A stretch of DNA of 56,707 bases from Reclinomonas americana ATCC 50394 (lineage: Eukaryota). This document shows positions 3,001 through 38,803 of this stretch, piece after piece. The stretch lies in assembly GCA_048213135.1 (NCBI GenBank), contig PS015044.1:109604-166310 (forward strand), written 5' to 3'. The notes beneath the pieces are model-generated. The model saw only the letters and a program-made list of their open reading frames with translations. It ran no database searches and was not told where the DNA came from. Position 1 is the first letter of the stretch. Every line of letters begins with the position of its first letter. The translations under genes were made by a program, and so were the position numbers.

Positions 3001-3173
3001 ACTCGTGCCGCTGATGTTGAACGAAGCCTGATTCGTGCCGCCGGTGATCGTGTACGTGAGGGTCTGGCCAGTATTGGGGTCAGTCGACGACAGCGTGCCA
3101 ATCACTCCGTTCAAAGCCAAAGGCGGAGTGTATGTCGACGACGATAAAGTGGGAGCAGTGGGTGGCGTATTCG
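1..3173 (-). repeat. Exon-intron tandem array (unit about 340-350 bp) of cadherin-like domains, 8 units visible
   Basis: Recurrent 279/276-nt exons ending ..ATC AGC/AAC GAA G|GT and starting AG|xx AAY, separated by 57-74 nt introns (one 634-nt intron at 1860-1227 filled with GA/CT microsatellite). Confidence 0.93.
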
Positions 3174-5448: not shown

Positions 5449-5479
<31 letters not shown>

Positions 5480-7450: not shown

Positions 7451-8619
7451 CTGTGGCGCGGGGAGAGTGTGTGTGTGTGAGAGAGAGAAGAGGAGAAACA
7501 GTGTACATGGAAAAGTTAGACAATCGACCGCGGACGAGTGTGCGGGAATCATGCACACTCGCAGAGAAAGGTTGAGAAAGTGTTGTGCAGTGGAGACACG
7601 ACGCGAGGCGAGGGATATCATTGACGGAGTGCAGCGACGGAGATTGGTGGGCAATGAATCAGAGAAAATTAGACACACTGGAAAGAAGTGGTGCAGCATG
7701 AAGGGAACGTGAGGGAGGGAGGAGGATGGAAGGAGGAGGATGGCGGGTGGAGAGCGAGGAAGAGAACGAGCGAGAGAGAGAGAGGATTGCATGTGTCCTC
7801 GAACAATGACATGGGAAACTCAGACAAAAGGAGCGAAACACATGCGTGAGAGGGGAGAGGGGTGAGAGGAGAAGGATGAGGAGGTGGCGGAGTCGTGGAG
7901 AGAAGGAACATAGGAGAGAGAGAGAAAGAGAGGGAGAGATGAGATGACAGAGTTGAGAGAAGATGAATGTGCGTGAGTTTCTGAAAGCGAGAGAGAGTGT
8001 GTGGGAGAGAGGGCGGGAGAGGGGATGAGGAAGGGAGGATGACGAGCGCCTTCCATCCTTTGTGGACACAGACAGGAGATGCACGATGTGCTGGTGCAGC
8101 TTCCGCATCCGCATTTGTCAACCTCTCCCCGAATGTGTGTGCATGCATGATGGATGGACACCGGAGACGCAGGAGGAGGAGGAGGAGAAGAAGAAGAAGA
8201 AGGAGAAAGGGAAGGAGAGGGAGAAGAAGGAGGAGTGTGCGTGTGCCTTAAAACTTATACCTGCAATGAAATCTGGACATGGGATGAGATGCACTTCTCG
8301 TTGGAGAGCACGTAGCCGCATGCGCGCTTGCTATGTGTGTGTTCACAGAGAGAGAAGAACACTCAGAGCGAAGGCAGAGTCGCTCTTCACAGAAGAGAGA
8401 GAGGAGAACAAATGAGGAGTCGATGGAATGGACTGTGGATTCTACTCTTTTCTATGCAGTGCCGTCAACCGCACCGCGGCTTCTTCGTGATACAGTGGGG
8501 GGGTTGGACAACAACGAAATGACTTGAGGTGCGCATTGCCTCCTTTGTCTCTCTCTCTCTCTCTCCATCACACATTGCATTCATTTCCGGTACAACAGAA
8601 TCACATTCACTGTGTGACC
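7451..8619. promoter_or_regulatory. Putative bidirectional promoter/5'UTR region between head-to-head adhesin-like gene and ATPase (may contain an upstream exon)
   Basis: Inferred from divergent gene orientation only; conserved in the mirror arm (37626-38803). No specific promoter motif identified. Confidence 0.4.
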
Positions 8620-15249
<6,630 letters not shown>

Positions 15250-15333
15250 ACAGTGAAGAGTGATGAAGAGAGAAGGGTTTTAGACAACAACAACAGCAAT
15301 TCATTCACCAACACAATGACGACAACAACTTTA

Positions 15334-16037
15334 CTAATCCAAACAGCAACACAGCTGCATGATGATCGCCATCTTGAGTGAGCACCAGAAACTCAGACAT
15401 CACGAAAAAAGAGCGAGAAAAAGTCGAGAAGGCTAATGCTGGCGTTTCTGCAAGAGAAACCACGGCTCATGACAAGCATGGATTTGACGCCGAATTCCAA
15501 AAAGGAATGCAGAAAGATAGCAAGAGGTGTTGGTCTCAGAACACACAAGGAAAACCAAGAAAGCCAGGCAACGTGCAATTGCAAGAAAGTCCGGGAAGGA
15601 GCTAAGGTTGAGTGGTTGTCCAACAAGCAACAGCTGTCTTGATGACCAAGTTCAAGATCAACGTTAACCATATCCAAAACATCAGCACAGAGGCGCAGCA
15701 GGTTCCAAGTGTGTGTGTGTGTTCGCTCTCGGAGCTCCGAACAAGTCGAGAACTGCGATCTACAAGTTTTTCTCGTTTCTTCCAGAGGAACAGCAGTCAC
15801 AACAAACGTAACTATCACTTTTCCCGTGATGTCTGAGTTTCTGGTGCTCACTCAAGATGGTGATCATTATGCAGCTGTGTTGCTGTTTGGATTAGGGTGA
15901 AGATCGCAGTTCTCGACTTGTTCGGAGCTCCGAGAGCGAACACACACACACACAGAACCTGCTGCCTCAAGATTGGTGTCGTTGATGTTTTGGATACGGT
16001 TGAACTTGGTCATCAAGACAGCTGTTGCTTGCTTGTT
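15334..16037. repeat. Two interleaved inverted-repeat pairs (A 15334-15404 / A' 15825-15895; B 15622-15761 / B' 15901-16037)
   Basis: A and A' are 71-nt reverse complements with about 2 mismatches; B and B' are imperfect reverse complements of about 140 nt. Confidence 0.88.
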
Positions 16038-17199
16038 AATGATATTGTTGCAAAAGTCGAATCACCGCAGCGGAAATCCAGCATCTGACAACTTTTGTCG
16101 GATTGTCATGCATTTGTCTCGTCCACGCTCTCTCCTCTCCGAATGAAGCACGTCTCACATAGAGAGACATATCGATGTGCTGACAGCAGTCGATTGTGGC
16201 CAGCCTGGTCGCTGTGAATACTGTCAATCCCGCCACACAAATTCAAAATTTCATTTTCATTTGGCCTCATTTTCAATTTTCTTTCTCTCGAACGCACACA
16301 CCATGTCTGGTCGAGGAGTCCCTCCCCCTGTTGTTGGACGTCCGGTGGTGGCACCGGGAGGTATCATGGTACGTGCTGCACTCCACGTGCACCAACACTG
16401 CTTCTGCGCATGCGCACATGTTCACCAGACGAGAATTCACATCCGTGTCGCACGTGCCCTCAGCCCCGTGGTATGCCACCGCACGGCCAAACCGGCACAC
16501 CAAGCTCGGCAGTGAACAACGGCGGACGTGTCAGCGGCAAGCCATCACAGTGGAACGTGTGATCGCCTGATGTGATTTTTTGTCCGCTGTGCCCTTGCTT
16601 CGCTTCGCTGAAGATGCCCTGGTAAATCATCCTCCTGTTCTCGCATCCTACCGTGTGCACAATGTCGCCAAACTCGCCGCTTTCTTTTGTGCGAAAGAGC
16701 CGCTGCAGATCATGAGGCGGACAATATGTGTTCTTNNNNNNNNNNNNNNNNNNNNNNNNNNNNNNNNNNNNNNNNNNNNNNNNNNNNNNNNNNNNNNNNN
16801 NNNNNNNNNNNNNNNNNNNNNNNNNNNNNNNNNNNNNNNNNNNNNNNNNNNNNNNNNNNNNNNNNNNNNNNNNNNNNNNNNNNNNNNNNNNNNNNNNNNN
16901 NNNNNNNNNNNNNNNNNNNNNNNNNNNNNNNNNNNNNNNNNNNNNNNNNNNNNNNNNNNNNNNNNNNNNNNNNNNNNNNNNNNNNNNNNNNNNNNNNNNN
17001 NNNNNNNNNNNNNNNNNNNNNNNNNNNNNNNNNNNNNNNNNNNNNNNNNNNNNNNNNNNNNNNNNNNNNNNNNNNNNNNNNNNNNNNNNNNNNNNNNNNN
17101 NNNNNNNNNNNNNNNNNNNNNNNNNNNNNNNNNNNNNNNNNNNNNNNNNNNNNNNNNNNNGAGTCAGGAAGCAAGTTTTCTCAAGTACGCAAGCGGTGC

Positions 17200-18281
17200 A
17201 GTGATGATGGTGCGAAACAGTCGCGAAATGAGGTCGCCCTGGTGTGCGGCGCTGAAAAAAGACACTGGCCGTGTGATCAGCACATTGACAAGCTGCGATC
17301 TGGCGCGAAGGAGCACCTGTGCACATGGCGCAAATGCTATTTATCAGTCTCGCGCGACAAGAGATCCAACACGCATACACATTGATTCACAGAAGTCACC
17401 TTGCTGTGCACGAGATGAAACAGCATGAGCGAGCTCTGCGATGAGAACTGCTGAGAGAACATCACAATGGCCCAGTTGATAAGGCCGCGTTTGACACCCT
17501 CCCAGTCGCGTTCTCTGGCAGAGAGACGACAACAGCAGGCACAGCATCGTGGTCAGTCAGCAGCAAACAGTCTCCGCCATGGTCAAGTTGGCGGTGAGGA
17601 CGGAACTCAATGATGGCCGAATTCTGCAACTCCTCCTGCAGCTTGCCCACAATGTTGCCAAGCATCACCGACTCAATCTGACTCGCCGCCGCGCCGACAG
17701 CGGCAAAGAGCACGGCAGTGAGGAGAAGCCACTTCTCCGGACCATAGAATGGCAAGATGCGCCACAACATTCGCAGCGTGTGGAACAAGCCTGCTCCACT
17801 TCTACACGGCTGGCAGCCACAGCAGTTGGTCTCGGACGTCTCCGAATGCCTCAACAGCTGGTCCTCGCCTGCGGGGGCTTCCTGTAGCACGCAGCGAACG
17901 TCGTCAGCATCTTGAACATTCCACACTGCGGTGCGCAGCGCGCGTAACGTTTCCGGCTGCAGCATAATTCGAATCCTCGCCCCCGGAATCGTCACGGCCA
18001 GACTGAGGGGCAGGCGACTCGGGTACGAGTTTGTGGTGCACATATCCGTCTCGATCAGTGCGCAGATGAAGCCGAGTCTTTGAGGCCATGGCGACGGCAA
18101 TCAACGACTGTGTCAACAAGCCAGTGGGGCTCATGCCGACAACCTCCATGTCATGAGTCGGATATGCGAGCACAGCAGCGAGCGACCTTCGACGAGTGCG
18201 CTGTCGATCTTGATCAGCAGGATGCGGCTCCTCCTCACTGAAGCGCATGTACTGCGCTGATGACCCATCGGTGCCCTGCAT
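17200..18281 (-). CDS. ABCB-like transporter, N-terminal exons (copy L; contig probably mis-oriented)
   Basis: Splices to MQGTDG../EAPAG..LWRILPFYGPEKWLLLTAVLFAAVG../ERDWEGVKRGLINWAIV../VLLRARSQLVNVLITRPVSFFSAAHQGDLISRL, with the ABCB TMD FF....G.L.SRL motif. Confidence 0.72.
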
Positions 18282-18519
18282 GGAGTCTCCATGGAGTGAG
18301 GATGAGTTCCACTCGCGGAGAGTTGAGCAGAGAATCNNNNNNNNNNNNNNNNNNNNNNNNNNNNNNNNNNNNNNNNNNNNNNNNNNNNNNNNNNNNNNNN
18401 NNNNNNNNNNNNNNNNNNNNNNNNNNNNNNCTCACTCACTCGCCAACCCCTCCCTCCCTCCCTCCCGCTCTTCTCCCTTCTCTCTCCCTCTCGCACTGCA
18501 CACACTCACTCATTCACTG

Positions 18520-18880
18520 TCAGCAACACAACACTGGAGTCAGCGTAACGCAACAGTTGAAGACAGTCAGATTTCCTAGAGTCAACTCTGATCGAATGAC
18601 CTTCCAGATAAGCAAGAACTGGCTGATTGTTGCCATCGAGCCAGTTACCAACAGACTGAAAATGTTGGCAACCTGGTTGCCGATATACGTGTCAACTGAT
18701 CGCAGCGACAACATCGATGCCCTTTGCAACTGTTGGCACGCACCGTCGAGATTTTCAGAATACCAATGGCCACGCCATAGTGATTCTTCGCACCGGAAAA
18801 GTATCGCTGCGACTCAGAGGCCTCTCGTCCATACGCACGAATACCGCGGATTCTTCGGAGAATGTCATCGGCAATGTCGC
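18520..18880 (-). CDS. ABCB-like transporter, internal TMD exons (contig probably mis-oriented)
   Basis: DIADDILRRIRGIRAYGREASESQRY (coupling-helix-like segment) and VIRSELTLGNLTVF (G.LT.G.L..F-like). Exon boundaries approximate. Confidence 0.65.
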
Positions 18881-18970
18881 ACATTGAACCTTGTGTCTGC
18901 ACATGCACACACAAGCGCAGATGCGAAATGTCACAATCGTTGCACTCGTCNNNNNNNNNNNNNNNNNNNN

Positions 18971-19457
18971 AACAGAATTGCCTTGGCACGCGCTTTCCTG
19001 CGACGGTCGCCGATTTTGGTGATGGATGAGCCCACCAGCGCACTGAATTCAGAGAGCATACAGCTGGTGTACAATGCACTGGAGGCGGTGAGTGGGGGTC
19101 GGCAGTCTGGTGAATTATGCTGGAGCCAGTGTGAGATTTTATCTGTTCACCCCCCATCTCTAGAAGATGACGGATTTCTTTTTCTCGTTTAGCCTTACTT
19201 GGTTAATTCGTCATCTCTCTTGTGATTCTATGTGCGGAAAGGGACCCAAATCTTGCGTTGCTAATTCTCTGCTACAGTACTGCAATGACACCGGAGGAAC
19301 GCTGCTCATAATATCACACATTGCCGTACCCGCGCAGTTGTGCAATTACGTGCTGCGTCTGGAAGCTGGGCACATGCAGCGCATGTCGAGAGAGGAGTAT
19401 GCTGCGCTGACGCAGCAGCAAGAGGGGTCAAGCGATATGCCGGCAGAAGAGATGTAG
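18971..19457 (+). CDS. ABC transporter nucleotide-binding domain, C-terminal exons (copy L)
   Basis: RIALARAFLRRSPILVMDEPTSALN (Walker B/D-loop), GTGAG..CAG intron, then LLIISH (H-loop) and stop. Confidence 0.85.
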
Positions 19458-19937
19458 AATTAGCCTCTCGGGAATGGTATGAAAAGGCAAGATGTGAAGG
19501 TCGTCTAATCATAGTGGCAATTAAACTGCAAGCAGCTCTCTCACCAGCGTTGGCCACCAGAGCACACGGACTGCAAAGAGATGACAATGTAACGCAAGTG
19601 TGATCGGCGCACGCATCTGCACGTCATTGCCGCCGTGCCCGCAATACGCCGCGGTGCGTTGCAGAACAAGTTGCACTACGCGATACAACGATCAAGGGTT
19701 GAGGGTGGAGGAGAGACGCTGATCGATATCACACGCACATTCAGAAGGGGTTGACACATGGATGAAATAAGGCCCTGTTACACGCACCGGCGCCGGGCGG
19801 TAGTTTGATCGTTTTCACGTGCCCTCGCTTCCTTCTCTCTTTCACATGTGTATAGCTCCCACGAGTGTGTCAAGATCTCAGTAATTCGATTGCTGCGGAC
19901 TCTCCCTTCTCAGCGCGCTAGTTGTGCTTTGCTACAC

Positions 19938-22868
19938 TCACAGCTCTCGACCACTATCTTCGCTGCCACGAAGCAGCGGTATCCCGAGTTCACCGCCGGC
20001 CAGTGACTTCTTGTCTGCATCCCGGGGCATCATTTCAGTGGCCTGCTGATCGACTTGGTCTGCGCAAAACACATTAGGAATGTCAACAACAGAGATGCGC
20101 AAACACATATGCGCACCAACGGCATTGTCGTTCCCGACATCAAGTGTGGAGCGCCGTCGTCGGCGAAGCCAAAGGCAACAGCCTATAATTTCCCGCCATG
20201 CAGACCATAGAATCGGCGACGCCAGCACGATACCAGTGAGAACCAAAACGACGATGCAGGAGACGACCTTGAACTGGGATTGCACTTGAGACGCAAAGAC
20301 GGTGGACACCACCACCAAGCTGCCTAATCCAATCGCCTGTAATGCAAGAAGCAACTCAATAAGTGTAAGAAGCAGCACAAAAGAATCTCTCTCTCTCTCT
20401 GATTCTCCCTGACACCAGCTCCCCACCTCCCCCCTCTCTCCCCCAATGGAGGGCGTCGCAGTAAGCGAACTTGTGATTGAGCGTGAACCACACTGCCCGC
20501 AGTCTCATTCTAGCACCATTCTATTTTTTTGGCTTTCGCCACTGAACCACTGCATGCATCTCCCGCTCTGTGTCACTGCCTACTGCTCATGCACATCAAA
20601 CTCTCCTGCATTGACTTCCGTCATTTCCCACGTGGCTGACACGACAACGAAGGCGTTTAGTGTCAAGTGCAATCTAGTGTGTTACCACGCGAATTCGGAG
20701 AGTTGCTCACTCTTCCTCACCGATGACGAACATCACTCACCTCGAGAATGTTGTACAGTGGTCGCGAGTACGGTCGCACGATCAGGTGTACTGTTAAGAA
20801 GCCGACGCACACCAACCACAACACAAGCGGCAGAGTGGCGAGCTGATCGGCAGCTGCCAGTGGAAAGAGAGTGCTCACAATCACCAGTCGACGAGTGAGT
20901 TGGTACGCTGTACAGTGATTCATCGAATGGTACAGCAGTCAGTCACATCAGTGCGTATTGCATATGAAAAAACACGCACTGCTGCAGAGCATCTTCGTTG
21001 ACTACAAATCACCTTGATACCACACCACTGGCGGTCGATAGTGGTTGTACAAAGTACCTAGACTACGGCGCACCGATTCGTCATCAAGCCTACGTTGTCG
21101 ACGCAAGCGAACAGTCCACCACACAATTGCCACGGGTGAGGCAAGCAGAAGCGCCCCCAGAATAGCAAACAGCGGGACCAACTGCAACCATCTGCACCCG
21201 TGTACGTGACACGCACAAGTCAACATATTAAAATTGGGAAGCAGCTAACAGAAGAAACTCTCGGACTATATCTGAAACCGCTCAGGGAGGCTGTCAAACT
21301 CTCTCCCTCCCTCCCTCTCACTCTCTCTCTCTCTCTCTCTCTATTTTCGTGACAAACATTATCTCTTCCACAGTCTCCGTTCCCTGCTGGCCACCCAACG
21401 CAACACTCCAGTGTAGCACACGATACTCGGCGAGAAGAGCACGACATGCTGCTGACCAACTGCCGTGCATGAGAAGAGAAACGTAACCACAGCCTCCGTT
21501 ACGCCCTCGTAGGCTGACAGCAGGAGGACAACAGTTGTCATCACGTAGCGAGACGGTACCGCAAACCGTCCAAACCACTGCACAAACTGTCCGCGCCAAC
21601 CAACGCGCTGGAATCGCCCAACAGGGTAACAGCAACGCGCCATCATAAACGCAAGCAACTTGTGCAGGCCAAAGAATGACCACAGAAGTGCCAGGTACAC
21701 CAAGGGTGACACAACACGGGCAAGCATGTCTCCGACTGCGTCCAGATGCAGGGGGCAACCCACGTTGAAGAATGCCGGCACCCAGCCCTTTAGGAGGCGG
21801 CTGACAGAGAGCAACTCCACATTGGGGTAAAACATCAGAGTCATGGTCTGCAGAGTGAAGATGATCATTTCGGCCGAGGCTGTTGAGCAAGTGATAGTCA
21901 GTCCAACGTCCCAGTACATAATCGACACAATACCAGAGAGGAACATATAAAATTGAGACTGTGCGTGCGGCGAGAGTTAAAGGTGCAGCGCCTCACACCC
22001 CTTGACAACATACAGTGCGATTTCACGGCGTTATAAAAGACACCCCCAACAACAACAAACAGCACAGCATTTCGTCTCTCGTACATACAGAAGCAAATGC
22101 AAATCAAGGAGAGTACACAAGTCCTCTCTAGAATTGCCTAACTCTATGCCCAACCCCGCCACTCACCTCCACCAGCTGCGACCTGGAAGAAAATGTGCAA
22201 CACGAGGACATATGCCGCCATCTTGAGAATCACGACAAGCCGGGCAACATTCGAGGTGCTGGTGCACTCTATGCATTGCCCCTCCCAGTACGAGTAATTT
22301 TCCTGTGAGCGACGGTCATCATTCGGCACCAGTCTCACTCACCACCATGTACACGAACCTTGCACGCGCCACAAAGTGGTGACAGCGGGTCTCGATGGAG
22401 CTTGCTATTGCAGAAATCGAACACTCCCTCGTTGCTCAGTTCGACCGGCTCCGGCCGCTGACAAAACTCATACGGGCACGTGTACATCACGATAAAATCA
22501 GACGGGGGCGGCATGATGGTGATGTCACCAGCTTGAATCGGTGCCGTGGTCCAGTGGAGAGATAACGGGAACGTCCAGAATGTAGACTCGACAAACAAGT
22601 TCGAACCACCGAGGCAGGCAAGTCCCGTGGAGCACAGCTGGCATGTTTGATTAAACGAAGGCGATGACAGTGAGTACTGTCCACCAGGACAGTCGGTACA
22701 ACCGCCGGAGTCGCTTGCAAAATGCTTGCCGGCCGGGCACGGCGAGAGTGGAACTGCAAGCGGCGGCGGCGGCTTGACAAAGTGACCGCCACCACTGATC
22801 GACACTGTGATGTTGAAGACTGACTGCGGCGGTATATCCGCAGAGCGCGCATGCGCAGCCACATTGCC
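19938..22868 (-). CDS. Cys-rich, multi-pass membrane protein (paralogue A of 23205-27949); 5' part lost in gap
   Basis: Exons about 22868-22359, 22302-22167, 21879-21405, 21192-21012, 20908-20741, 20336-20117, 20060-19938 (last boundaries approximate). CPAG..C..C..G.Y....C..C..G..C.GG Cys-rich module, SPLCGACK, several hydrophobic segments, LGTLY.HYRP.VVWYQ motif. Confidence 0.78.
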
Positions 22869-23204
22869 NNNNNNNNNNNNNNNNNNNNNNNNNNNNNNNN
22901 NNNNNNNNNNNNNNNNNNNNNNNNNNNNNNNNNNNNNNNNNNNNNNNNNNNNNNNNNNNNNNNNNNNNNNNNNNNNNNNNNNNNNNNNNNNNNNNNNNNN
23001 NNNNNNNNNNNNNNNNNNNNNNNNNNNNNNNNNNNNNNNNNNNNNNNNNNNNNNNNNNNNNNNNNNNNNNNNNNNNNNNNNNNNNNNNNNNNNNNNNNNN
23101 NNNNNNNNNNNNNNNNNNNNNNNNNNNNNNNNNNNNNNNNNNNNNNNNNNNNNNNNNNNNNNNNNNNNNNNNNNNNNNNNNNNNNNNNNNNNNNNNNNNN
23201 NNNN

Positions 23205-26200
23205 GGAAACGGGTGGTGGTGGCGTGGCCATGAGCGGACAGGGCTGCAAGATTATGGACTCTTTCGTCAAGTCCAACTCAGCGCCTGACGGATATGGCGG
23301 TGGAGTGGTGCTCAGCGAGGTGGCCACCACAGCCACAATCAGCAACACCACAGTCTCCAGCAACACGGCGCTGTATGGTGGTGGACTTGCTGTGCGTGCC
23401 GAACAGGCAAGCTTGCAGATTCAATCGCAATCTGTTGTGGACAGCAATCAGGCAACGCAGAACGGTGGCGGTGTGTATCTCACTGCCACCGCCACGCTTG
23501 CCGTGTCGAGTGGCTCTTGTGTGCAGAACAACAAGGCACTCCATTTCGGTGGTGGAATGTTTGCCGACCTGCAGTCCTCGTCTTCTTGGTTGGATTCGTT
23601 TATTGTTGGCAATTCTGCACCCTTCGGCAGTGGCCTGTTCACTGACCAGAACAGCAAGCACACACTGACGGGTACGTCTGTCAGCAACAATCAGGCGACG
23701 GCAGATGGTGGTGGCGTGTATGCCGACGGCGTGTCGCAGGTCAGTCTCGCCAACTGCTATTTGGCGGCCAACAATGCCACCCTGGCCGGAGGCGGCATGT
23801 ACGTGTCCCAAACGGCCAACGTCACATCGTCCACAAACCAGTTCCAGAGCAACACAGCAGCCACCTCTGGTGGACATGTGACTGCACAGGGACTGGGAAT
23901 GTGGACGGATACGGGCAGCACACTGAGTGCTGGCCTGGCACAGTTGTGGGGCGGTGCATTTTATGCTGCTGGCAGCTCAAGCACCACAATGTGGGGATCC
24001 CGACTGCTCGCCAATCGTGTCGCTGGTGGTGGCGGTGGTGGAGTGTCGGCGGCGGAGACTGCGCAAGTGGTGATGACTGCGGTGATAGTGGAAGGCAATC
24101 AGGCTGACAACGGAGGTGGTGTATACACGCGCACGGACAACAATCCACAAGTGAACATCACTGGCTCGCTGCTGAAGAACAACACGGCGACAACAGTTGG
24201 TGGCGGTCTCTTTGCCGGAGGCTCTGCCAACGTCACCAGCTCGAACACTCGCTTTGTAGGCAACACGGCCGAGCGAGGTGATGGTGGTGGAGCATCGGTG
24301 GTGGACACGACAACGACTTCCTTTGTCTCAACGACATTTGCTGACAACTGGAGTGGAGCACGCGGTGGCGGTCTGGCCGTTAACATCACTCAATCGACAG
24401 TGGGTTCCGTCGGTGTGCTCCTGTATAGTGTGTCAGTGTTTGGCAATCAAGCGGTGGCACCTCTGGGTCAACCCCGCTTGGTTGGCGAAGGAGCCGGTGG
24501 CGGCATCTTTTGGAACGGTGGTGGCAATCCGTCGACGCTTGCCGCTGTGTCGCAGTCATTCGCTGCTGCTGGTGGATGGTCATCGTGGATGCAGCAGCGG
24601 CAGTTAAACGTCACTGGTAACCTGGCCAGTAACTCGCTGGCGAATGATGTCGGCAGCAGTTGCGTTGCATGTGATGAGCACAAATATGTTTGCTTTTCTT
24701 TTTGAAGGTTCATGCTTCGCTGCAGCGCTGTACTCTGTTATGATGGACTCGACCAGCGGCGTACCATATCCATCACCACAGCAGCCACGAGTTATACAGG
24801 TGAACGCTACGGATGTCTTCGGTCAGTTCATGTCGACACTGGACAACACGCAGTTCCATGTCACTTGCTCCTCGGGTTGCAGCCCAGCGGTTTGTCGTGC
24901 TTACTCATCTCGTCTTTCAAGATTGTTCCTCGCTGACGACCCACCGCCCACTTATGCAGACAAGCTCTCAGTCCGAGTCGACCGTGGCTGGAACTGCGAC
25001 ATTCCAGTTGACGATTGTCGAGCGTGGGGCGAATCCGACCCAAGGCATTCGCGCGCATCTGCGCGACACCGGCGACTCTGTGAGCATCGGCATCACCACT
25101 GGCTCTGGCGGTGGCTTTGTCGGCCCGCAGCCTGAGCTCTCATTGCCACTGGCAGCTTGCCCTGCGGGTTACAGTTACACGGACATTGGCTGCCAGCAAT
25201 GCCCTCCTGGCGAGTACGCGTTGCCGACGAGTGCATTCAACCAGACGTGCGCGCCGTGTCCAGCCAATGCCGACTGCCTCGGCGGATTGCAGATGGCAGT
25301 GCAGTCGCAGTTCTGGACCTTCCCAGTTGATACTGACTGGCAGATTGAGGGTGTCTTGTCCAAAGGATGGGCAGGCACGCTAGTGTCGCCACCGTCTGCT
25401 GTGGTGGCATACCTCTGTCCCTATGATTACTGCGAACGCGGTGACGACTCTAGCCAAACCTTGGTGACTGTCGACGCCGAATACTGCAATGAGGAGACAA
25501 ATCGTGCGTCAGACTCGCCGCTGTGTGGAGCGTGTAAGGTGGGTCACATGTCGGTGCAGCGAAAGATGATGGCTTTCTCACTGAAATATGCAGGAGGGCT
25601 ACTCTCAGTGGCAAGGAGTGTGCATTCCGTGCGAATCAACATCAGGATGGGCGCGCTTGTGGACATTCACCAAGATGCTTGCCTTTGTGCTATTCATCCA
25701 CGTCTTCTTCCAGATTGATGTTGGTGGAGGTGTGTAATCCGGGAGAAGAGACGGGAAACGCGAAAGTGAGAATAGAAGAGATGGGAAAGGCGAGGGCGAG
25801 AAGAGCAATGGAGAGACGAGCGAGTCCCAGAGGAAGGGAGACAGGAAAGGCGTGAGAGGAGCGATGAGGGAAGCCGCACTCATTGCGGAACACAGCGAGT
25901 GGGAGAGAGATGGTAACACGACGCAGTCGAAGGAGAGACAGCAAGTGAGGAGAGGAGACATGAAGCAAGAGGAACTATAGGCAGTTAGAGAGGAAAGCAA
26001 ACACACCCGTGTTGATTGGATCAAGACTGACCCACTTGAATGTCCGCTTGCAGCATCTGCCGAAATCATCATCTTCACCCTCCAGACCACCACGCTTCTC
26101 TTCTACCCCAACGTGGAACTCATCACTCTCAACCGACTGCTCACCTTTGTCGTGCCGCGCATTCTGGATGTCGGCTGTCCGTTCAACACAGACGCTGTCG

Positions 26201-27949
26201 GTGACCTGTTGGCTCGTGTCGTATCGCCATTTGTGTCGCTGGCGATCTTGTGGGCCTGCTTTGTTCTACATTGGCTGCTTGCAAGAGCATTGGTGCGCTG
26301 CATCCACCATGGCTCGACGAGCGGACGATGGCCGCGATTCGTCACGTGGTTCAGGCTTATCGCCTCGCCGCACCACTACATCCTGACAACAGTTGTGCTG
26401 CTGCTGGGAGCGTACGAGGGCCTGGCGGAGACGGCGATTACGTTCTTCACGTGCACGGAGGTCGGCAACAGTCATGTGGTGCTCTTTTCACCCAGCATTG
26501 TGTGCTACGAGGGAGTGTTGCGTTTTATTTTGCAGCAGTGCGGTTGTCCCATTCCGTGCGCACGCTGATCAGCAAATGTGTGTGCGCAGGTGGCATCGAC
26601 TAATTCCGCTCTTTGCCGTGCTGCTGGCAGCCACTCTCAGTGTGCCAGTGTTGGTAGTGTGGTGGACCGTGCGCTTGCGTCGGCAAAAGAGATTACATGA
26701 CGAGAAGGTCGGTGGTGGCAAGTAATCAGCTTGAGATGACATAGTCTCATTCTTGTGCGACAGACTCGGCGACGATTCGGTGTGTTGTACGATCACTTCC
26801 GACCCCCGGTGGTATGGTATCAAGGTGAGTGGCGCGAAGGGGAGGACGGGAGAGAGAGATAGAGAGTTAGATCTGCACAAGGGTAGATGTATTCTTTGCG
26901 TCACGCTTTCGTGTGCATGATAAGGTATTGCACTGGGTGCGCACAGCAAATCAAGCCCAACGGTTGCTGAGAGCAGTGAGGTCAGAATGCATACGGGCGC
27001 ACTGATGTTTGATTGTTTGCTTCTCCGCTGCACTGGCTGTGTCACTCTTTCACATATTTGCACTACGCACAGCGAATAGTTGCACCAATGCCACTTATCG
27101 TCGAAAAGAGTCTCGTACGCGCACAACAGACTTAGGGGCAAGAAGGCACACAGTGAGGCGATGCTGATCGCCACAATATATGCAATAGAATTACACTGCC
27201 CCACCATCAGTGTCACAGATGATGGTCGTCACCGCACCGAGCATTACTTCTCACTGTTCCATTTGGGTACATCAGGCTATCAACTATGTCGACGTCTGAT
27301 CGTCCTCGCCGTGCTCTTCCCTCTCGCCGCCACGGGATCAATCGACATCCTTCCACTGGCGCTGTGGGTGGTGTGTGTCGCCTTCCTCGCGGTGCACCTC
27401 GTCGTTCGCGCCTATGAACACCTCTTGTACAACGTGCTGGAGGTGAGTCGTGCACTGTGAGTGCGGACACACATGCATTCTCATTCTGTGTGCTTGGCAG
27501 GCCATCGGGCTCGGCTCCCTGGTTATCATCTCCACCGTGTTCGCATCACACGCATCTCCGCGCTTCAAAGTCGTCACGTGCATCGTGGTGCTCTCGCTTG
27601 CTGGCGCAGTGTTGGTGGGCCCAGTAGTGCTGTCTGGTATCAAGGCCGCGGTGGCGTTTTGCAGACGTCGGCAGAGGCGAGGATCGGCAACCTCTGATGG
27701 TGCGCGTCGTCTGAGATGCAGGGATTCTCGATGCAGAGCACTCCCTTTGCCTCTCTCTCTCTCTCACTCATTCTTTTTATCTCTGTATTCTTCTCTCTCG
27801 CTCATACAACAGAAATCGAGATGCAAGTGGGTGCAAGCCGTCACGTGCAAGTCACCAGTGTTTCCACGCTCCATGCGCCGCTCCTGGAGGCTGCCGACGA
27901 GGATGACAACAGACTGGAGCGTCGCGGCATGGTCACCGGAGCTGTTTGA
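23205..27949 (+). CDS. PMP-like/right-handed beta-helix repeat protein with Cys-rich module and multi-TM C-terminus (paralogue B); 5' end lost in gap
   Basis: Many N.A..GGG(V/L/M/A) and F..N motifs in 23205-24658, then exons 24726-24889, 24960-25538, 25594-25729, 26054-26516, 26590-26707, 26764-26824, 27276-27442, 27501-27699, 27813-27949, all GT-AG and phase-consistent. Confidence 0.82.
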
Positions 27950-28093
27950 TTCACTGTACCGTGCAACAGCGTTGAATCCCTCTCAGTGACCTGGTGGCCA
28001 ACGCTGGTGAGAGAGCTGCTTGCAGTTTAATTGCCACTATGATTAGACGACCTTCACATCTTGCCTGTTCATACCATTCTCGAGAGGCTAATT

Positions 28094-30990
28094 CTACATC
28101 TCTCCTGCCGGCATATCGCTCGACTCCTCTTGCTGCTGCGTCAGCGCAGCATACTCCTCTCTCGACATGCGCTGCACGTGCCCTGCTTCCAGACGCAGCA
28201 CGTAATTGCACAACTGCGCGGGTACGGCAATGTGTGATATTATGAGCAGCGTTCCTCCGGTGTCGTTGCAGTACTGTTGCAGAGAATTAGCAACGCAAGC
28301 TTTGGGTCCCTTTCCGCACATAGAATCACAAGAGAGAAGACGAATTAACCAAGAAAGGCTAAACGAGAAAAAGAAATTCGTCATCTTCTAGAGATGGGGG
28401 GTGAACAGATAAAATCTCACACTGGCTCCAGCATAATTCACCAGACTGCCGACCCCCACTCACCGCCTCCAGTGCATTGTACACCAGCTGTATGCTCTCT
28501 GAATTCAGTGCGCTGGTGGGCTCATCCATCACCAAAATCGGCGACCGTCGCAGGAAAGCACGTGCCAAGGCAATACTGTTNNNNNNNNNNNNNNNNNNNN
28601 GAGAGAGAGAGAGAAAAGAGAACAAAGCAGCATCCACCAGTATGGTCTCGGTTCCTTGGCCATTGGGAGACTTTGCTTCGTCCTTTCGCATTCCCGTCTC
28701 TTTTTCCATACGCTGCCTCTGTCTCCCTCGTTTCTTCGATCCCACTCGACCGCACGCACCAATGTATCGCCAGCGCTCATCGAGGTCCTCTTGCCTCGTA
28801 ACGCTCCGTCACTTCCTTTGTTGTCAACCTCCTTGAGCTTCAAACGTGGAACGCCCTCCTGTAGGCAAAGTGAGCCAGCAAATAGCTCTAATACATATGC
28901 ATGATGCCACATGCAACGACGAACTCCATCGCCAGCCGGCAGCAAGAGGATTTCGTAAATGTCCTCAATGCCACCCACGGTTTGCATGAGATTGGAGAAC
29001 GAATCACTGGCCACACTGATTGAACCAAGCGCAGAAGCGGAAACGGCTGCAGTGCGGCGTCGCATGTGTATGTCAGTCGGACGTGCACACAGACGCACAC
29101 ATGCACAAACACACCCCCACAGACGCCACACACACCACACACACTCTCTTATTCACTCACTCACTCACTCACTCACTCACTCACTCTCTCTCCCACTCAC
29201 TCACTCTCTCTCTCTCTCTCTCTTATTCACTCACTCACTCACTCACNNNNNNNNNNNNNNNNNNNNNNNNNNNNNNNNNNNNNNNNNNNNNNNNNNNNNN
29301 NNNNNNNNNNNNNNNNNNNNNNNNNNNNNNNNNNNNNNNNNNNNNNNNNNNNNNNNNNNNNNNNNNNNNNNNNNNNNNNNNNNNNNNNNNNNNNNNNNNN
29401 NNNNNNNNNNNNNNNNNNNNNNNNNNNNNNNNNNNNNNNNNNNNNNNNNNNNNNNNNNNNNNNNNNNNNNNNNNNNNNNNNNNNNNNNNNNNNNNNNNNN
29501 NNNNNNNNNNNNNNNNNNNNNNNNNNNNNNNNNNNNNNNNNNNNNNNNNNNNNNNNNNNNNNNNNNNNNNNNNNNNNNNNNNNNNNNNNNNNNNNNNNNN
29601 NNNNNNNNNNNNNNNNNNNNNNNNNNNNNNNNNNNNNNNNNNNNNNNNNNNNNNNNNNNNNNNNNNNNNNNNNNNNNNNNNNNNNNNNNNNNNNNNNNNN
29701 NNNNNNNNNNNNNNNNNNNNNNNNNNNNNNNNNNNNNNNNNNNNNNNNNNNNNNNNNNNNNNNNNNNNNNNNNNNNNNNNNNNNNNNNNNNNNNNNNNNN
29801 NNNNNNNNNNNNNNNNNNNNNNNNNNNNNNNNNNNNNNNNNNNNNNNNNNNNNNNNNNNNNNNGAGTCAGGCAGCAGGTTTTCTCAAGTACGCAAGCGGT
29901 GCAGTGATGGTGCGAAACAGTCGCGAAATGAGGTCGCCCTGGTGTGCGGCGCTGAAAAAAGACACTGGCCGTGTGATCAGCACATTGACAAGCTGCGATC
30001 TGGCGCGAAGGAGCACCTGTGCACATGACGCAAATGCTATTTATCAGTCTCGTGCGACAAGAGATCCAACTCGCATACACATTGATTCACAGAAGTCACC
30101 TTGCTGTGCACGAGATGAAACAGCATGAGCGAGCTCTGTGATGAGAACTGCTGAGAGAACATCACAATGGCCCAGTTGATAAGGCCGCGTTTGACACCCT
30201 CCCAGTCGCGTTCTCTGGCAGAGAGACGACAACAGCAAGCACAGCATCGTGGTCAGTCAGCAGCAAACAGTCTCCGCCATGGTTAAGCTGGCGGTGAGGA
30301 CGGAACTCAATGATGGCCGAATTCTGCAACTCCTCCTGCAGCTTGCCCACAATGTTGCCAAGCATCACCGACTCAATCTGACTCGCCGCCGCGCCGACAG
30401 CGGCAAAGAGCACGGCAGTGATGAGAAGCCACTTCTCCGGACCATAGAATGGCAAGATGCGCCACAACATTCGCAGCGTGTGGAACAAGCCTGCTCCACT
30501 TCTACACGGCTGGCAGCCACAGCAGTTGGTCTCGGACGTCTCCGAATGCCTCAACAGCTGGTCCTCGCCTGCGGTGGCTTCCTGTAGCACGCAGCGGACG
30601 TCGTCAACACATCTTGAACATTCAACACTGCGGTGCGCAGCGCGCAGCGCGCGTAACGTTTCCGGCTACAGCATAATTCGAATCCTTGCCCCCGGAATCG
30701 TCACGGCCAGACTGAGGGGCAGGCGACTCGGGTACGAGTTTGTGGTGCACATATCCGTCTCGATCAGTGCGCAGATGAAGCCGAGTCTTGGAGGCCATGG
30801 CGACGGCAATCAACGACTGTGTCAACAAGCCAGTGGGGCTCATGCCGACAACCTCCATGTCATGAGTCGGATATGCGAGCACAGCAGCGAGCGACCCTCG
30901 ACGAGTGCGCTGTCGATCTTGATCAGCAGGATGCGGCTCCTCCTCACTGAAGCGCAGGTACTGCGCTGATGACCCATCGGTGCCCTGCAT
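28094..30990 (-). CDS. ABCB-like ABC transporter (one TMD + one NBD seen), copy R, interrupted by gaps
   Basis: Exons 30990-30658, 30581-30307, 30214-30100, 30016-about 29919; gap; exons within about 29050-28750 (..DSFSNLMQTVGGIEDIYEILLLP..); gap; NBD end 28580-28463 and about 28274-28094. All on the minus strand in the expected domain order. Confidence 0.8.
29150..29246 (+). repeat. (CACT)n/(CT)n microsatellite in ABC intron
   Basis: Directly visible, abuts a gap. Confidence 0.9.
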
Positions 30991-31757
30991 GGAGTCTCCA
31001 TGGAGTGAGGATGAGTTCCACTCGCGGAGAGTTGAGCAGAGAACCNNNNNNNNNNNNNNNNNNNNATGAACACATATTGTCCGCCTCATGATCTGCAGCG
31101 GCTCTTTCGCACAAAAGAAAGCGGCGAGTTTGGCGACATTGTGCACACGGTAGGATGCGAGAACAGGAGGATGATTTACCAGGGCATCTTCAGCGAAGCG
31201 AAGCAAGCACAAAGCAGGTACAGCGGACAAAAAAATCACATCAGGCGATCACACGTTCCACTGTGATGGTTTGCCGCTGACACGTCCGCCGTTGTTCACT
31301 GCCGAGCTTGGCGTGCCGGTTTGGCCGTGCGGTGGCATACCACGGGGCTGAGGGCACGTGCGACACGGATGTGAATTCTCGTCTGGTGAACATGTGCGCA
31401 GAAGCAGTGTTGGTGCACGTGGAGTGCAGCACGTACCATGATACCTCCCGGTGCCACCACCGGACGTCCAACAACAGGGGGAGGGACTCCTCGACCAGAC
31501 ATGGAGTGTGCGTTCGAGAGAAAGAAAATTGAAAATGAAAATGAAATTTTGAATTTGTGTGGCGGGATTGACAGTATTCACAGCGACTAGGCTGGCCACA
31601 ATCGACTGCTGTCAGCACATCGATATGTCTCTCTATGTGAGACGTGCTCCATTCGGAGAGGAGAGAGCGTGGACGAGACAAATGCATGACAATCCGACAA
31701 AACTTGTCAGATGCTGGATTTCCGGTGATTCGACTTTTGCAACAATTGCAACAAAAA

Positions 31758-32021
31758 ATTCACTAACAAGCAAGCAACAGCTATCTTGATGACCAAGTTC
31801 AACCGTATCCAAAACATCAACGACACCAATGAGGCAGCAGGTTCCTTGTGATGCGGTGAAGATCGCAGTTCTCGATCGCGACTTGTTCGGATCCGGAGCT
31901 CCGAATGCGAATACCCACGCCCGAGGAACCTGCTGCTGCCCCACGATTGGTGTCTGTGTTGATGTTTTGAATATGGTTGAACTTGGTCATCAAGACAGCT
32001 GTTGCTTGTTTGTTGGTGAAT
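31758..32021. repeat. Imperfect fold-back (arms about 31758-31846 and 31924-32021), MITE-like
   Basis: AACAAGCAAGCAACAGCTATCTTGATGACCAAGTTCAACC..GCAGCAGGTTCC is the near reverse complement of GGAACCTGCTGC..GGTTGAACTTGGTCATCAAGACAGCTGTTGCTTG. Confidence 0.8.
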
Positions 32022-32293
32022 GAATTTGTTGTTGTTGTTGTTGTTGTTGGTCAACCACGCTTACGCGGTGGAGCCGTGGTTTCTCTTGCAGAAACGCCAG
32101 CATTAGCCGTCTCGACTTTTTCTCGCTCTTTTTTCGTGATGTCTGAGTTTTTGGTGCTCACTCAAGATGGTGATCATCATGCAGCTGTGTTGCTGTTTGG
32201 ATTAGTAAAGTTGTTGTTATTGTTGTTGGTGAATGAAATGCTGTTGTTGTTGTCTAAAACAGTCGTCTTTCTCTCTCCATCGCTCTTCACTGT

Positions 32294-37625
<5,332 letters not shown>

Positions 37626-38803
37626 GGTCACACAGTGAATGTGATTCTGTTGTACCGGAAATGAATGCAATGTGAGAGAGGCAAAGGAGGCAATGCGCAC
37701 CTCAAGTCATCTCGTTGTTGTCAACCCCCCCACTGCACCACGAAGAAGCCGCGGTGGTTGACGGCACTGCATACAAATGAATACAATCCACAGTCCATTC
37801 CATCGACTCCTCATTCTTCTCCTCTCTCTCGTCTGTGAAGAGCGACTCTGCCTTCGCTCTGAGTGTTCTCCTCTCTTTGTGAACACACACACACACAGAC
37901 GTACACATAGCAAGCGCGCATGCGGCTACGTGCTCTCCAACGAGAAGTGCAACTCATCCCATGTCCAGATTTCATTGCAGGTTAAGTTTTAAGGCACACG
38001 CACACTCCTCCTTCTTCTCCCTCTCCTTCCCTTTCTCCTTCTCCTCCTCCTCCTCCTCCTCCTCCTCCTCCTCCTGCGTCTCCGGTGTCCATCCATCATG
38101 CATGCACACACATTCGGGGGGAGGTTGACAAATGCGGATGCGGAAGCTGCACCAGCACATCGTGCATCTCCTGTCTGTGTCCACAAAGGATGGAAGGCGC
38201 TCGTCATCCTCCCTTCCTCCTCTCCTCTCCCGCCCTCTCTCCTCTTCCGCCCACTCTCTCTCTCTCATACAAACTCACGCACATTCATCGTCTCTCGTCT
38301 CTGTCATCTCATCTCTCTCTCTCCATTTCTCTCTCTCTCTCTCTCCTCTGTTCCTTCTCTCCACGACTCCGCCACCTCCTCATCCTTCTCTCACTCCCCT
38401 CTCACGCATCGTGTTTCGCTCCTTTTGTCTGAGTTTCCCTTGTCGTTGTTCGTGGACACATGCAATCCTCTCTCTCTCCCTCGTTCTCTCCCTCGCTCTC
38501 TCCCTCGCTCTCCACCCTCCATCCTCCACCCTCCCTCGCGTTCCCTTCATGCTGCACCACTTCGTTCCAGTGTGTCTAATTTTCACAGATTCATTACCCA
38601 CCTATCTCCGTCGCTGCACTCCGTCAATGATATCCCGCGCCTCGCGTCGTGTCTCCACTGCACAACACTCTCTCAACCTTTCTCTGCGTGTGTGTGCATG
38701 ATTCCCGCACACTCGTCCGCGGTCGATTGTCTAACTTTTCAATGTACACTGTTTTCTCTTCTTCTCTCTCTCTCTGCTCTCATTCTCCCCGCGCGCGACA
38801 CAG

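What the first reader, a model, noticed from the sequence alone, without database searches (positions are those of the whole stretch)
19561..27990. Identity collapses at the centre, yet homologous receptor-like genes occupy mirror positions
Seen: arm identity stops abruptly about 100 bp past the ABC stop, but each side continues into the 3' end of a related gene (shared SPLCGACK, ASAE.IIFTLQT, VGCP...DAVGD.LARVVSP, VVLFSPSIVCY.GV, RPPVVWYQ, AIGLGSLV) with mostly shared intron positions and no evident intron similarity. Inference: either an old duplication whose arms alone are homogenised, or two hyper-divergent alleles (idiomorph-like) of a surface receptor within near-identical flanks, the pattern expected of self/non-self recognition or mating-type-like loci under balancing selection.
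Basis: partly seen in the sequence, partly recalled or inferred. Interest (0 to 1): 0.74.

Follow-up and report, generated by a model that had tools for sequence, protein, structure and literature searches.

The report
Old gene pair inside inverted repeat
Two anciently diverged copies of a large surface-membrane protein gene sit back to back between two younger mirror-image DNA arms in a gapped draft scaffold of an unidentified protist, and the data cannot yet say whether they are neighbours on one chromosome or two very different alleles.

Summary
Mirror-image arms (about 3757-19560 and 27991-42420) stop matching at 19560/27991, 103 bp after the ABC transporter stop codon. Each side then runs into the 3' end of a related gene: A on the minus strand, B on the plus strand.

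A and B are 51% identical in protein (312 of 611 aligned residues). They share five predicted intron positions and phases. Their introns cannot be aligned, and B has one extra intron.

Two points change the picture.
- **The centre is a gap.** It is a 336-N run (22869-23204) in a scaffold with two wrongly oriented contigs, so the link between A and B is not sequence-verified.
- **The arms are not near-identical.** Synonymous divergence rises outward: about 0.03 (ABC), 0.057 (ATPase), 0.24 (glycine-rich gene). The A/B pair is saturated (pS 0.72).

A and B are therefore far older than the arms now look. My best reading (about 0.5) is a real inverted repeat, partly homogenised near its centre, whose unique spacer holds an old head-to-head paralogue pair. 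The main rival (about 0.27) is two haplotypes joined by mis-scaffolding, which would make A and B hyperdivergent alleles.

The proteins belong to a sparse, unnamed protist family: beta-helix, Ig-like and Cys-rich ectodomain, then about nine membrane helices. Nothing tested shows a recognition or mating role.

The parts
3757..19560 (.). Left arm of the inverted repeat. Homology to the right side in fact continues to window base 1 through a tandem-repeat gene.
   Evidence: blastn of left against right half. Substitutions by block: 10% (3757-5491), 4.0% (6764-10700), 2.6%, 1.6%, 1.6% and 2.5% (18971-19560).
27991..42420 (.). Right arm of the inverted repeat
8620..15276 (+). P-type cation ATPase, left copy (several exons; ENA/Ca-type by its best hits)
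   Evidence: tblastn with P0021-P0031. Best database relative is only 56% identical. Against the right copy, 984 codons give dS 0.057 and dN 0.007.
32267..37673 (-). P-type cation ATPase, right copy
   Evidence: The apparent frameshift near 9880 is a 1-bp indel inside an intron.
17161..19457 (+). ABC transporter, left copy. Stop TAG at 19455-19457. Contigs 17161-18336 and 18431-18950 carry its exons on the wrong strand.
   Evidence: ORFs. ABC_tran hit is sub-threshold: E 0.0021, 19.1 bits against a cut-off of 25. Orientation argument rests.
28094..31045 (-). ABC transporter, right copy; its pieces are consistently oriented
   Evidence: Against the left copy, 240 codons give dS about 0.03 (5 synonymous differences).
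19938..22868 (-). Gene A, 5'-truncated by the gap. Predicted exons: 22868-22359, 22302-22167, 21879-21372, 21191-21013, 20907-20741, 20336-19938 (stop). 632 codons with no internal stop.
22869..23204 (.). 336-N run at the centre of symmetry, between the 5'-truncated ends of A and B
   Evidence: The length is not trustworthy: a 20-N run hides at least about 0.4 kb of ABC coding sequence in both arms (inference).
23206..27989 (+). Gene B, 5'-truncated by the gap. Predicted exons: 23206-24616 (beta-helix repeats), 24708-24889, 24960-25538, 25594-25729, 26054-26537, 26590-26707, 26764-26824, 27276-27442, 27501-27989. 1208 codons.
   Evidence: Pfam Beta_helix PF13229: E 2.3e-14, 53.7 bits against a cut-off of 25.9.
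26708..26763 (+). 56-nt predicted intron present in B only. A reads through the homologous codons.

Best explanation
The window holds a real large inverted repeat on one chromosome. Its unique spacer of about 8.4 kb or more carries two divergently transcribed, anciently separated paralogues (A and B) of a protist membrane-protein family.

The arms carry a repeat-protein gene, a glycine-rich protein gene, a P-type ATPase and an ABC transporter. They are either a much younger inverted (fold-back type) duplication, or have been repeatedly homogenised by arm-to-arm gene conversion, most effectively next to the spacer. A and B lie outside the converting tract, so they kept diverging to saturation.

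**Shown:** the inverted arms, the sharp inner boundary, A/B homology, shared intron positions, saturated synonymous divergence of A/B, and the outward rise of arm divergence.

**Inferred:** physical linkage across the N gap, gene conversion, and the order of events.

**Likely protein function (inferred from domains only):** a surface-exposed adhesin-like or sensor ectodomain coupled to a multi-pass, possibly channel-like, membrane domain.
For: - **Consistent gene order.** Each half is internally consistent and ends 3'-to-3' against A or B.
- **Age contrast.** A/B have pS 0.72 (335 of 465 synonymous sites), four-fold site identity 0.355 over 183 sites, and dN 0.48. The ATPase pair has pS 0.055 (42 of 762). 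Fisher p = 4e-140.
- **Gene-structure differences.** One intron is present in B only. Paired intron lengths differ widely: 451/105, 58/404 and 52/180 nt. This is more usual for paralogues than for alleles (my judgement).
- **Non-uniform arm divergence.** Arm dS rises from about 0.03 to 0.057 to 0.24 going outward. ATPase against the glycine-rich gene gives p = 1e-16. Four pairs of contig ends coincide within 2 bp in the two arms, as expected if identical stretches collapsed and dropped out. Both points fit patchy gene conversion.
- **The flipped contig.** Contig 17161-18336 has the orientation of its right-arm twin 29864-31045 (97.4% identical). Mates mis-assigned between truly inverted copies would produce exactly this error (inference).
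- **Allelic divergence would be extreme.** dS of 0.24 in the glycine-rich gene would be unusually high for alleles.
Against: - The join between A and B is an N run, and no sequence crosses it.
- A gap between duplicated copies on one scaffold is a listed hallmark of false heterotype duplications (PMC9516828, passages read).
- Two of six left-arm contigs are mis-oriented, so this scaffold is demonstrably unreliable.
- If both genes are complete, the gap must hold several kb (A lacks its whole beta-helix half), not 336 bp.
- The mirror placement of A and B against the arms follows automatically if they are alleles. Under a late duplication it needs two well-placed breakpoints.
- The low dN/dS of the ATPase pair (0.12) fits alleles as well as it fits retained duplicates.
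Confidence: 0.5

Rival explanations
1. The scaffold is a false join of two haplotypes of a single locus (...ATPase > ABC > < gene). A and B are then hyperdivergent alleles (idiomorph-like) of one surface-protein gene, lying in flanks that differ by ordinary but high heterozygosity.
For: - An N gap sits exactly between the two copies.
- Gaps between duplicates on one scaffold are a stated hallmark of false heterotype duplications, which were highest in Sanger-based assemblies (PMC9516828, passages read).
- The scaffold has two flipped contigs.
- A and B occupy the same position and orientation relative to ABC, with a single sharp boundary.
- Both arms keep intact, purifying-selected genes (ATPase dN/dS 0.12).
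- Coalescence time that varies along a recombining haplotype pair would also give uneven arm divergence.
Against: - A head-to-head join is not what mates between parallel haplotypes would support (reasoning, not tested). The word 'inverted' does not occur in the main text of PMC9516828.
- Divergence is lowest right beside the supposed balanced locus and rises away from it. That is the opposite of the usual hitch-hiking signature.
- An intron presence/absence difference, unalignable introns and saturated dS are extreme for alleles.
- dS of 0.24 in the glycine-rich gene would demand a hyperdiverse species.
Confidence: 0.27
2. One ancient inverted duplication created both the arms and the A/B pair. 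Since then arm-to-arm gene conversion has kept the arms alike, while the central genes escaped and diverged.
For: - Mirror placement follows by construction.
- The dS gradient in the arms and the coincident contig ends suggest ongoing or past conversion.
- The boundary is sharp, as at the arm/spacer borders of known converting repeats (the comparison is recalled).
Against: - There is no gradient inside A/B. Synonymous sites are saturated in the ectodomain (pS 0.73), the membrane domain (0.70) and the tail (0.78), right up to the boundary where the arms differ by only 2.5%.
- Initially identical central copies would have been converted together with the arms, so an extra escape mechanism must be assumed.
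- Arms at 88-98% identity are far less alike than in actively converting palindromes (recalled: over 99.9% on the human Y).
Confidence: 0.15
3. The palindrome is a purely technical chimera, for example an amplification or cloning artefact or a scaffolder error unrelated to haplotypes, and A and B are unlinked family members.
For: - Draft quality is poor: 16 N runs, 6618 N in total, and flipped contigs.
Against: - Fold-back artefacts of amplification give identical arms. These arms differ by 1.6-10% with many indels.
- Both halves carry the same four neighbouring genes in the same order.
Confidence: 0.05

Closest known systems
Large palindromes with a unique spacer maintained by arm-to-arm gene conversion (e.g. 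sex-chromosome palindromes; recalled, not looked up)
   Same: Two inverted arms of at least 16 kb carrying intact genes, a unique spacer, a sharp arm/spacer border, and uneven arm divergence compatible with conversion.
   Different: Arm identity is only about 88-98% rather than near-perfect. The spacer holds two homologous genes in mirror orientation. Linkage across the centre is unverified.
False heterotype duplications in draft assemblies (Ko et al. 2022, PMC9516828; abstract and passages read)
   Same: Duplicated copies on one scaffold separated by an assembly gap, with the copies differing at a level that could be heterozygosity.
   Different: Here the copies are inverted and each consists of several ordered contigs. 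Read depth, k-mer and read-pair criteria could not be tested.
Idiomorphs and hyperdivergent allele loci under balancing selection (fungal mating-type and het loci; recalled)
   Same: An abrupt switch from similar flank to unalignable or highly diverged sequence at a defined point. The genes encode surface-type proteins.
   Different: Only one boundary is visible. Allelism is unproven. A and B remain clearly homologous (51% identity) with the same exon plan.
Dictyostelium tgrB1-tgrC1 allorecognition pair (search listing and abstract starts only: PMC11088635, PMC12745789)
   Same: Two related polymorphic membrane-protein genes acting as a pair. If the scaffold is right, A and B are likewise adjacent paralogues. 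That tgrB1/tgrC1 are head to head is recalled, not read.
   Different: Unrelated architecture (multi-pass membrane domain and beta-helix repeats here). No polymorphism or functional data.
Pfam PF06011 'TRP' domain membrane proteins (fungal Flc1/TrpR-type; search listing and abstract starts only: PMC9600462, PMC8618638)
   Same: An extracellular N-terminal region followed by a multi-helix membrane domain. Sub-threshold PF06011 hits in 2 of 19 family members (best E 2.9e-5). Atlas neighbour clusters carry TRP and Ephrin_rec_like in a minority or majority of members.
   Different: No member reaches the Pfam cut-off. A and B exons give no hit. No structural match to any solved membrane protein.
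Fold-back inverted duplications with a short single-copy spacer (recalled)
   Same: The geometry arm-spacer-inverted arm, with breakpoints in intergenic DNA, is what one fold-back priming event would give.
   Different: A single event predicts uniform arm age, but arm dS varies eight-fold. No junction microhomology beyond a few bases was evident.

Membership tests
Converting palindrome (inverted arms plus unique spacer, in cis) | Two arms in inverted orientation flanking a unique spacer | tested here: met
   No A/B-like sequence lies outside 19561-27990 (24 of 24 tblastn rows fall in the centre).
Converting palindrome (inverted arms plus unique spacer, in cis) | Near-perfect arm-to-arm identity | tested here: not met
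   407 mismatches in 9438 aligned bases; 1.6-10% by block, plus many indels.
Converting palindrome (inverted arms plus unique spacer, in cis) | Both arms on one DNA molecule | not testable with these tools
   The centre is 336 N. No genome is held. No sequencing run was listed.
Converting palindrome (inverted arms plus unique spacer, in cis) | Signs of gene conversion between arms | tested here: inconclusive
   dS of 0.03, 0.057 and 0.24 from inside outward and coincident contig ends. Allelic recombination would look the same.
False heterotype duplication (criteria of PMC9516828) | Gap between the duplicated copies on the same scaffold | tested here: met
   N run 22869-23204 between the two halves; criterion read.
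False heterotype duplication (criteria of PMC9516828) | Half read depth, haplotype-specific k-mers, discordant read pairs | not testable with these tools
   The look-up of sequencing runs listed none.
Idiomorph / balanced hyperdivergent alleles | Abrupt boundary between similar flanks and dissimilar core on both sides | tested here: inconclusive
   The 3' boundary is sharp. The 5' boundary lies in the gap.
Idiomorph / balanced hyperdivergent alleles | The two forms occupy the same locus in different haplotypes and segregate | not testable with these tools
   No reads, isolates or whole genome are available.
Right-handed beta-helix repeat proteins (Pfam PF13229) | Pfam hit above the gathering score | tested here: met
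   B exon 23206-24705: 53.7 bits against a cut-off of 25.9, E 2.3e-14. Gene A's equivalent part is missing in the gap.
Chlamydia PMP repeat (Pfam PF02415) | Pfam hit above the gathering score | tested here: not met
   15.2 bits against a cut-off of 20.6 for B. 4 of 19 family members hit, best E 0.01.
PF06011 TRP-domain membrane proteins | Pfam hit above the gathering score | tested here: not met
   2 of 19 members hit, best E 2.9e-5. P0018 scores 18.1 bits against a cut-off of 28.5. No hit for A or B exons.
PF06011 TRP-domain membrane proteins | Fold match to a solved member | tested here: inconclusive
   Models of P0018 (pLDDT 79) and P0007 (pLDDT 70) gave no membrane-domain match above helical background. 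Best Z was 9.3; Foldseek gave none at E of 0.001 or better for P0007.
Unnamed protist family (beta-helix + Ig-like + Cys-rich + about 9 TM) | Significant sequence similarity of the membrane exon and the shared Cys-rich motif | tested here: met
   A profile of the A/B exon found 20 proteins at E of 0.001 or better, 6 at 1e-10 or better. Relatives align to the same exons of A and B. Full-length members have 1057-1415 aa, two of them from Gefionella okellyi transcripts.

The most novel reading that the evidence does not exclude
A and B are two ancient allelic lineages (idiomorph-like) of one surface-exposed beta-helix/Cys-rich/multi-pass membrane protein. They are kept by balancing selection as a self/non-self or mating-compatibility marker in a poorly sampled protist lineage. 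The palindromic scaffold is simply the two haplotypes laid end to end.
Probability: 0.15. Interest if true: 0.75.

Novelty: new member of a known kind. Interest (0 to 1): 0.33.

Why it matters
If the cis reading is right, this is an ordinary large inverted repeat with a unique spacer. It is useful mainly as a documented case of uneven arm homogenisation next to a gene pair that escaped it.

If the allelic reading is right, it would be one of very few hyperdivergent recognition-type loci known outside animals, fungi, plants and Dictyostelium. It would also be directly testable by PCR.

Either way, the analysis marks this scaffold as unreliable: it has a central gap and flipped contigs. It also defines a sparse, unnamed protist membrane-protein family whose membrane domain has no solved structural relative among those searched.

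Tried and rejected
- **Whole genome:** none is held.
- **Sequencing runs:** none was listed for B. No RNA holder was listed, so depth, phasing and expression could not be examined, and read laying was not used.
- **Word-based protein searches with the membrane exon:** no hit among longer proteins; only P0001 among near-length proteins.
- **Metagenome scans:** a family pattern gave 23 pattern matches, none confirmed by tblastn. A 28-nt exact stretch at the edge of contig A gave 0 matches.
- **Other family members:** The only close outside relative, P0001, is more distant from each (46% to A, 52% to B) than they are from each other (about 60% on that exon).
- **Membrane-domain fold:** Foldseek and VIA-align on two models gave no match above background. 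The ectodomain matched Ig-like/invasin-type sandwiches (Z 9.3, rmsd 3.2, 95 residues).
- **PDB sequence profile search:** only weak ephrin-receptor Cys-rich hits (E 0.018).
- **Apparent ATPase frameshift in the left arm:** rejected; it is a 1-bp indel inside an intron.
- **The 336-N length as an argument against a cis arrangement:** dropped. A 20-N run in both arms hides part of the ABC nucleotide-binding domain, so N lengths are unreliable.
- **Organism identity:** not established. The best ATPase relative is 56% identical and unnamed.
- **First literature search on inverted haplotig misassemblies:** gave nothing usable.


Full report
**What the window is.** The 56,707-base window is a gapped draft scaffold of a eukaryote with GT-AG introns. 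It has 16 N runs totalling 6618 N, which divide it into 17 contigs. No whole genome is held. The best database relative of its P-type ATPase is only 56% identical and unnamed, so the organism is not identified and its own proteins are not in the collections searched.

**The inverted repeat.** An inverted repeat dominates the window. The left side (about 3757-19560, with repeat homology out to base 1) matches the reverse complement of 27991-42420 and beyond. Each half carries the same genes in the same order:
- a tandem-repeat gene
- a glycine-rich protein gene (Pfam Gly_rich_2, 38.7 and 47.5 bits against a cut-off of 24.3)
- a P-type ATPase
- an ABC transporter (ABC_tran only sub-threshold on the fragment tested)

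**The observation.** Base-level alignment shows about 97% identity up to 19560/27991 and nothing alignable after.

Inside, gene A runs on the minus strand from a stop at 19938 up to the N run at 22869. Gene B runs on the plus strand from 23205 to 27989. tblastn gives seven in-frame exon blocks at 41-66% identity, with E values down to 4e-57.

I built gene models from GT-AG sites that keep frame and match between the two genes:
- A has 632 codons in six exons.
- B has 1208 codons in nine exons.
- Neither has an internal stop.
- Five introns lie at the same codon and phase (0, 1, 2, 1, 0).
- One 56-nt intron (26708-26763) exists only in B.

These introns are predictions, because no RNA data were available. 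Intron pairs differ greatly in length (451/105, 58/404, 52/180 nt). They score no better than shuffles apart from splice signals, and so do the 3' flanks (z at most 3.5).

The centre of symmetry is a 336-N run (22869-23204). It is not placed symmetrically. A is cut at a point homologous to about 25041 in B, so B has about 1.8 kb more 5' sequence, including a 1.4-kb beta-helix exon.

The scaffold is also faulty. Contigs 17161-18336 and 18431-18950 carry ABC exons on the strand opposite to the ABC 3' end. The first has the same orientation as its right-arm twin 29864-31045 (97.4% identical).

Four pairs of contig ends coincide within 2 bp in the two arms: 16735/31066, 17161/29864, 18336/31045 and 18971/28580. 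A 20-N run stands at the same homologous base in both arms. The ABC nucleotide-binding domain is largely missing there, so N-run lengths cannot be trusted (the last step is inference).

**How old is what.** Over 611 aligned codons, A and B are 51% identical (312/611). pS is 0.72 (dS about 2.4, saturated) and dN is 0.48. At 183 four-fold sites identity is 0.355. Saturation is the same in the ectodomain (pS 0.73), the membrane domain (0.70) and the tail (0.78). Protein identity in those three parts is 45%, 60% and 22%.

| Pair | Codons | Synonymous differences / sites | dS | dN |
|---|---|---|---|---|
| ABC (inner arm) | 240 | 5 / 172 | about 0.03 | 0.019 |
| ATPase (mid arm) | 984 | 42 / 762 | 0.057 | 0.007 |
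| Glycine-rich gene (outer arm) | 649 | 112 / 544 | 0.24 | 0.068 |
| A / B (centre) | 611 | 335 / 465 | about 2.4 (saturated) | 0.48 |

Fisher tests give p = 1e-16 for ATPase against the glycine-rich gene and p = 0.18 for ABC against ATPase. Raw substitutions rise the same way, from 1.6-2.5% near the centre to 10% at 3757-5491.

So the flanks are not near-identical, and they are not of uniform apparent age. The central pair is at least forty times more diverged at silent sites than the adjacent arm.

**Interpretation.** Silent-site saturation and unalignable introns cannot come from selection on the protein. A and B therefore separated long before the arms reached their present similarity. Three histories fit.

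- **(a) Cis, younger or homogenised arms.** A real inverted repeat has a spacer holding an old head-to-head paralogue pair. The arms were either duplicated later (fold-back type) or kept alike by gene conversion that is strongest near the spacer.
- **(b) Strict single-event palindrome.** One ancient palindrome made both the arms and A/B, and only the arms were homogenised.
- **(c) Two haplotypes.** Two haplotypes of one locus were mis-scaffolded head to head, which would make A and B hyperdivergent alleles.

I favour the cis reading for four reasons:
- The uneven arm age and the coincident contig ends point to exchange between two similar copies.
- The flipped contig has exactly the orientation of its twin in the other arm. 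That is the error expected when mates are mis-assigned between truly inverted copies (inference).
- The intron gain or loss and the large intron length changes are more typical of paralogues.
- Allelic dS of 0.24 in a neighbouring gene would need a hyperdiverse species.

Against the cis reading:
- The only link between the halves is a gap.
- Gaps between duplicates are a stated hallmark of false heterotype duplications, which were most frequent in older assemblies (PMC9516828, passages read).
- The mirror placement of A and B follows automatically if they are alleles.

I put the cis readings together at about 0.65: 0.5 for the broad form and 0.15 for the strict single-event form. I put the allelic artefact at about 0.27 and other artefacts at about 0.05.

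**What the genes encode.** Pfam recognises only the right-handed beta-helix in B's first exon. A profile of the A/B membrane exon, searched against 1.84 billion representatives, found 20 proteins at E of 0.001 or better. They are mostly unnamed fragments from public assemblies. Full-length members have 1057-1415 aa, and two of them are Gefionella okellyi transcripts. These share the architecture.

An AlphaFold model of relative P0018 (pLDDT 79.1, pTM 0.68, 19-row alignment) shows:
- an Ig-like sandwich, matching invasin/intimin-type and glycosidase accessory domains (Z 9.3, rmsd 3.2, 95 residues)
- a Cys-rich module
- about nine to ten long helices

Hydropathy gives the same count of segments in A and B. 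The membrane domain has no convincing solved relative. For a second model (P0007, pLDDT 70.1) the best Z was 9.3, below the helical background, and Foldseek gave nothing at E of 0.001 or better.

There are two weak leads:
- Sub-threshold PF06011 'TRP' hits in 2 of 19 members (best E 2.9e-5).
- Atlas neighbour clusters carrying Ephrin_rec_like, TRP or DUF7630.

PF06011 proteins are described as fungal TRP-like calcium channel or Flc1-type proteins in the abstracts listed. 'Receptor-like surface protein' is therefore a fair description. 'Possibly channel-like' is a lead only.

**Novelty and verdict.** The geometry is real in the sequence and statistically beyond chance. It belongs to known kinds: either an inverted repeat with a unique spacer, or a haplotype duplication artefact. 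No evidence bears on recognition or mating function. The most novel reading still open is the allelic one. It can be settled by one long-range PCR or by a read-depth check.

Noticed in passing
window 1-3500 and 42700-56707: Tandem array with a period of about 336-349 bp (for example 46873-51509: 13.4 copies, 75% matches). Each unit is an open exon of about 95 aa (…NVNPTAPTLSSSTYTPPLALNGVIGTLASTD…TYTITGG…) plus a short intron-like stretch. It therefore looks like one very long gene of repeated extracellular domains, present on both sides in mirror orientation. One unit gave no Pfam hit.
   Followed up: partly
window 4139-7658 (- strand) and 38800-42044 (+ strand): Glycine-rich protein gene (Pfam Gly_rich_2). 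Its two copies differ far more than the rest of the arms: dS 0.24 and dN 0.068 over 649 codons.
   Followed up: partly
window 17161-18336 and 18431-18950: Two contigs of the left arm carry ABC transporter exons on the wrong strand relative to the gene's 3' end. The 520-bp contig 18431-18950 and the 646-bp contig 28601-29246 have no counterpart in the other arm.
   Followed up: yes
window 18951-18970 and 28581-28600: Identical 20-N runs stand at the same homologous base in both arms, next to a CT microsatellite inside an ABC intron. The first part of the ABC nucleotide-binding domain is missing from both copies, so these N runs hide real sequence.
   Followed up: partly
window 27987-27989: The open frame of gene B's last exon ends one base before the right arm begins (27991). 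Its last ~100 codons include CT-repeat-coded low-complexity sequence, so the true 3' end may involve a further intron or a junction-created tail.
   Followed up: no
window 12377-12608 and 33404-34054: Long (GA)n/(TC)n microsatellites (119 and 325 copies) inside the ATPase gene region. One of them ends a contig.
   Followed up: no
window 8620-15276: The P-type ATPase's closest relatives are a taxonomically mixed set (unnamed, Tetraselmis, Chromera, Andalucia, kinetoplastids) at 56% identity or less. This suggests a poorly sampled eukaryotic lineage.
   Followed up: partly
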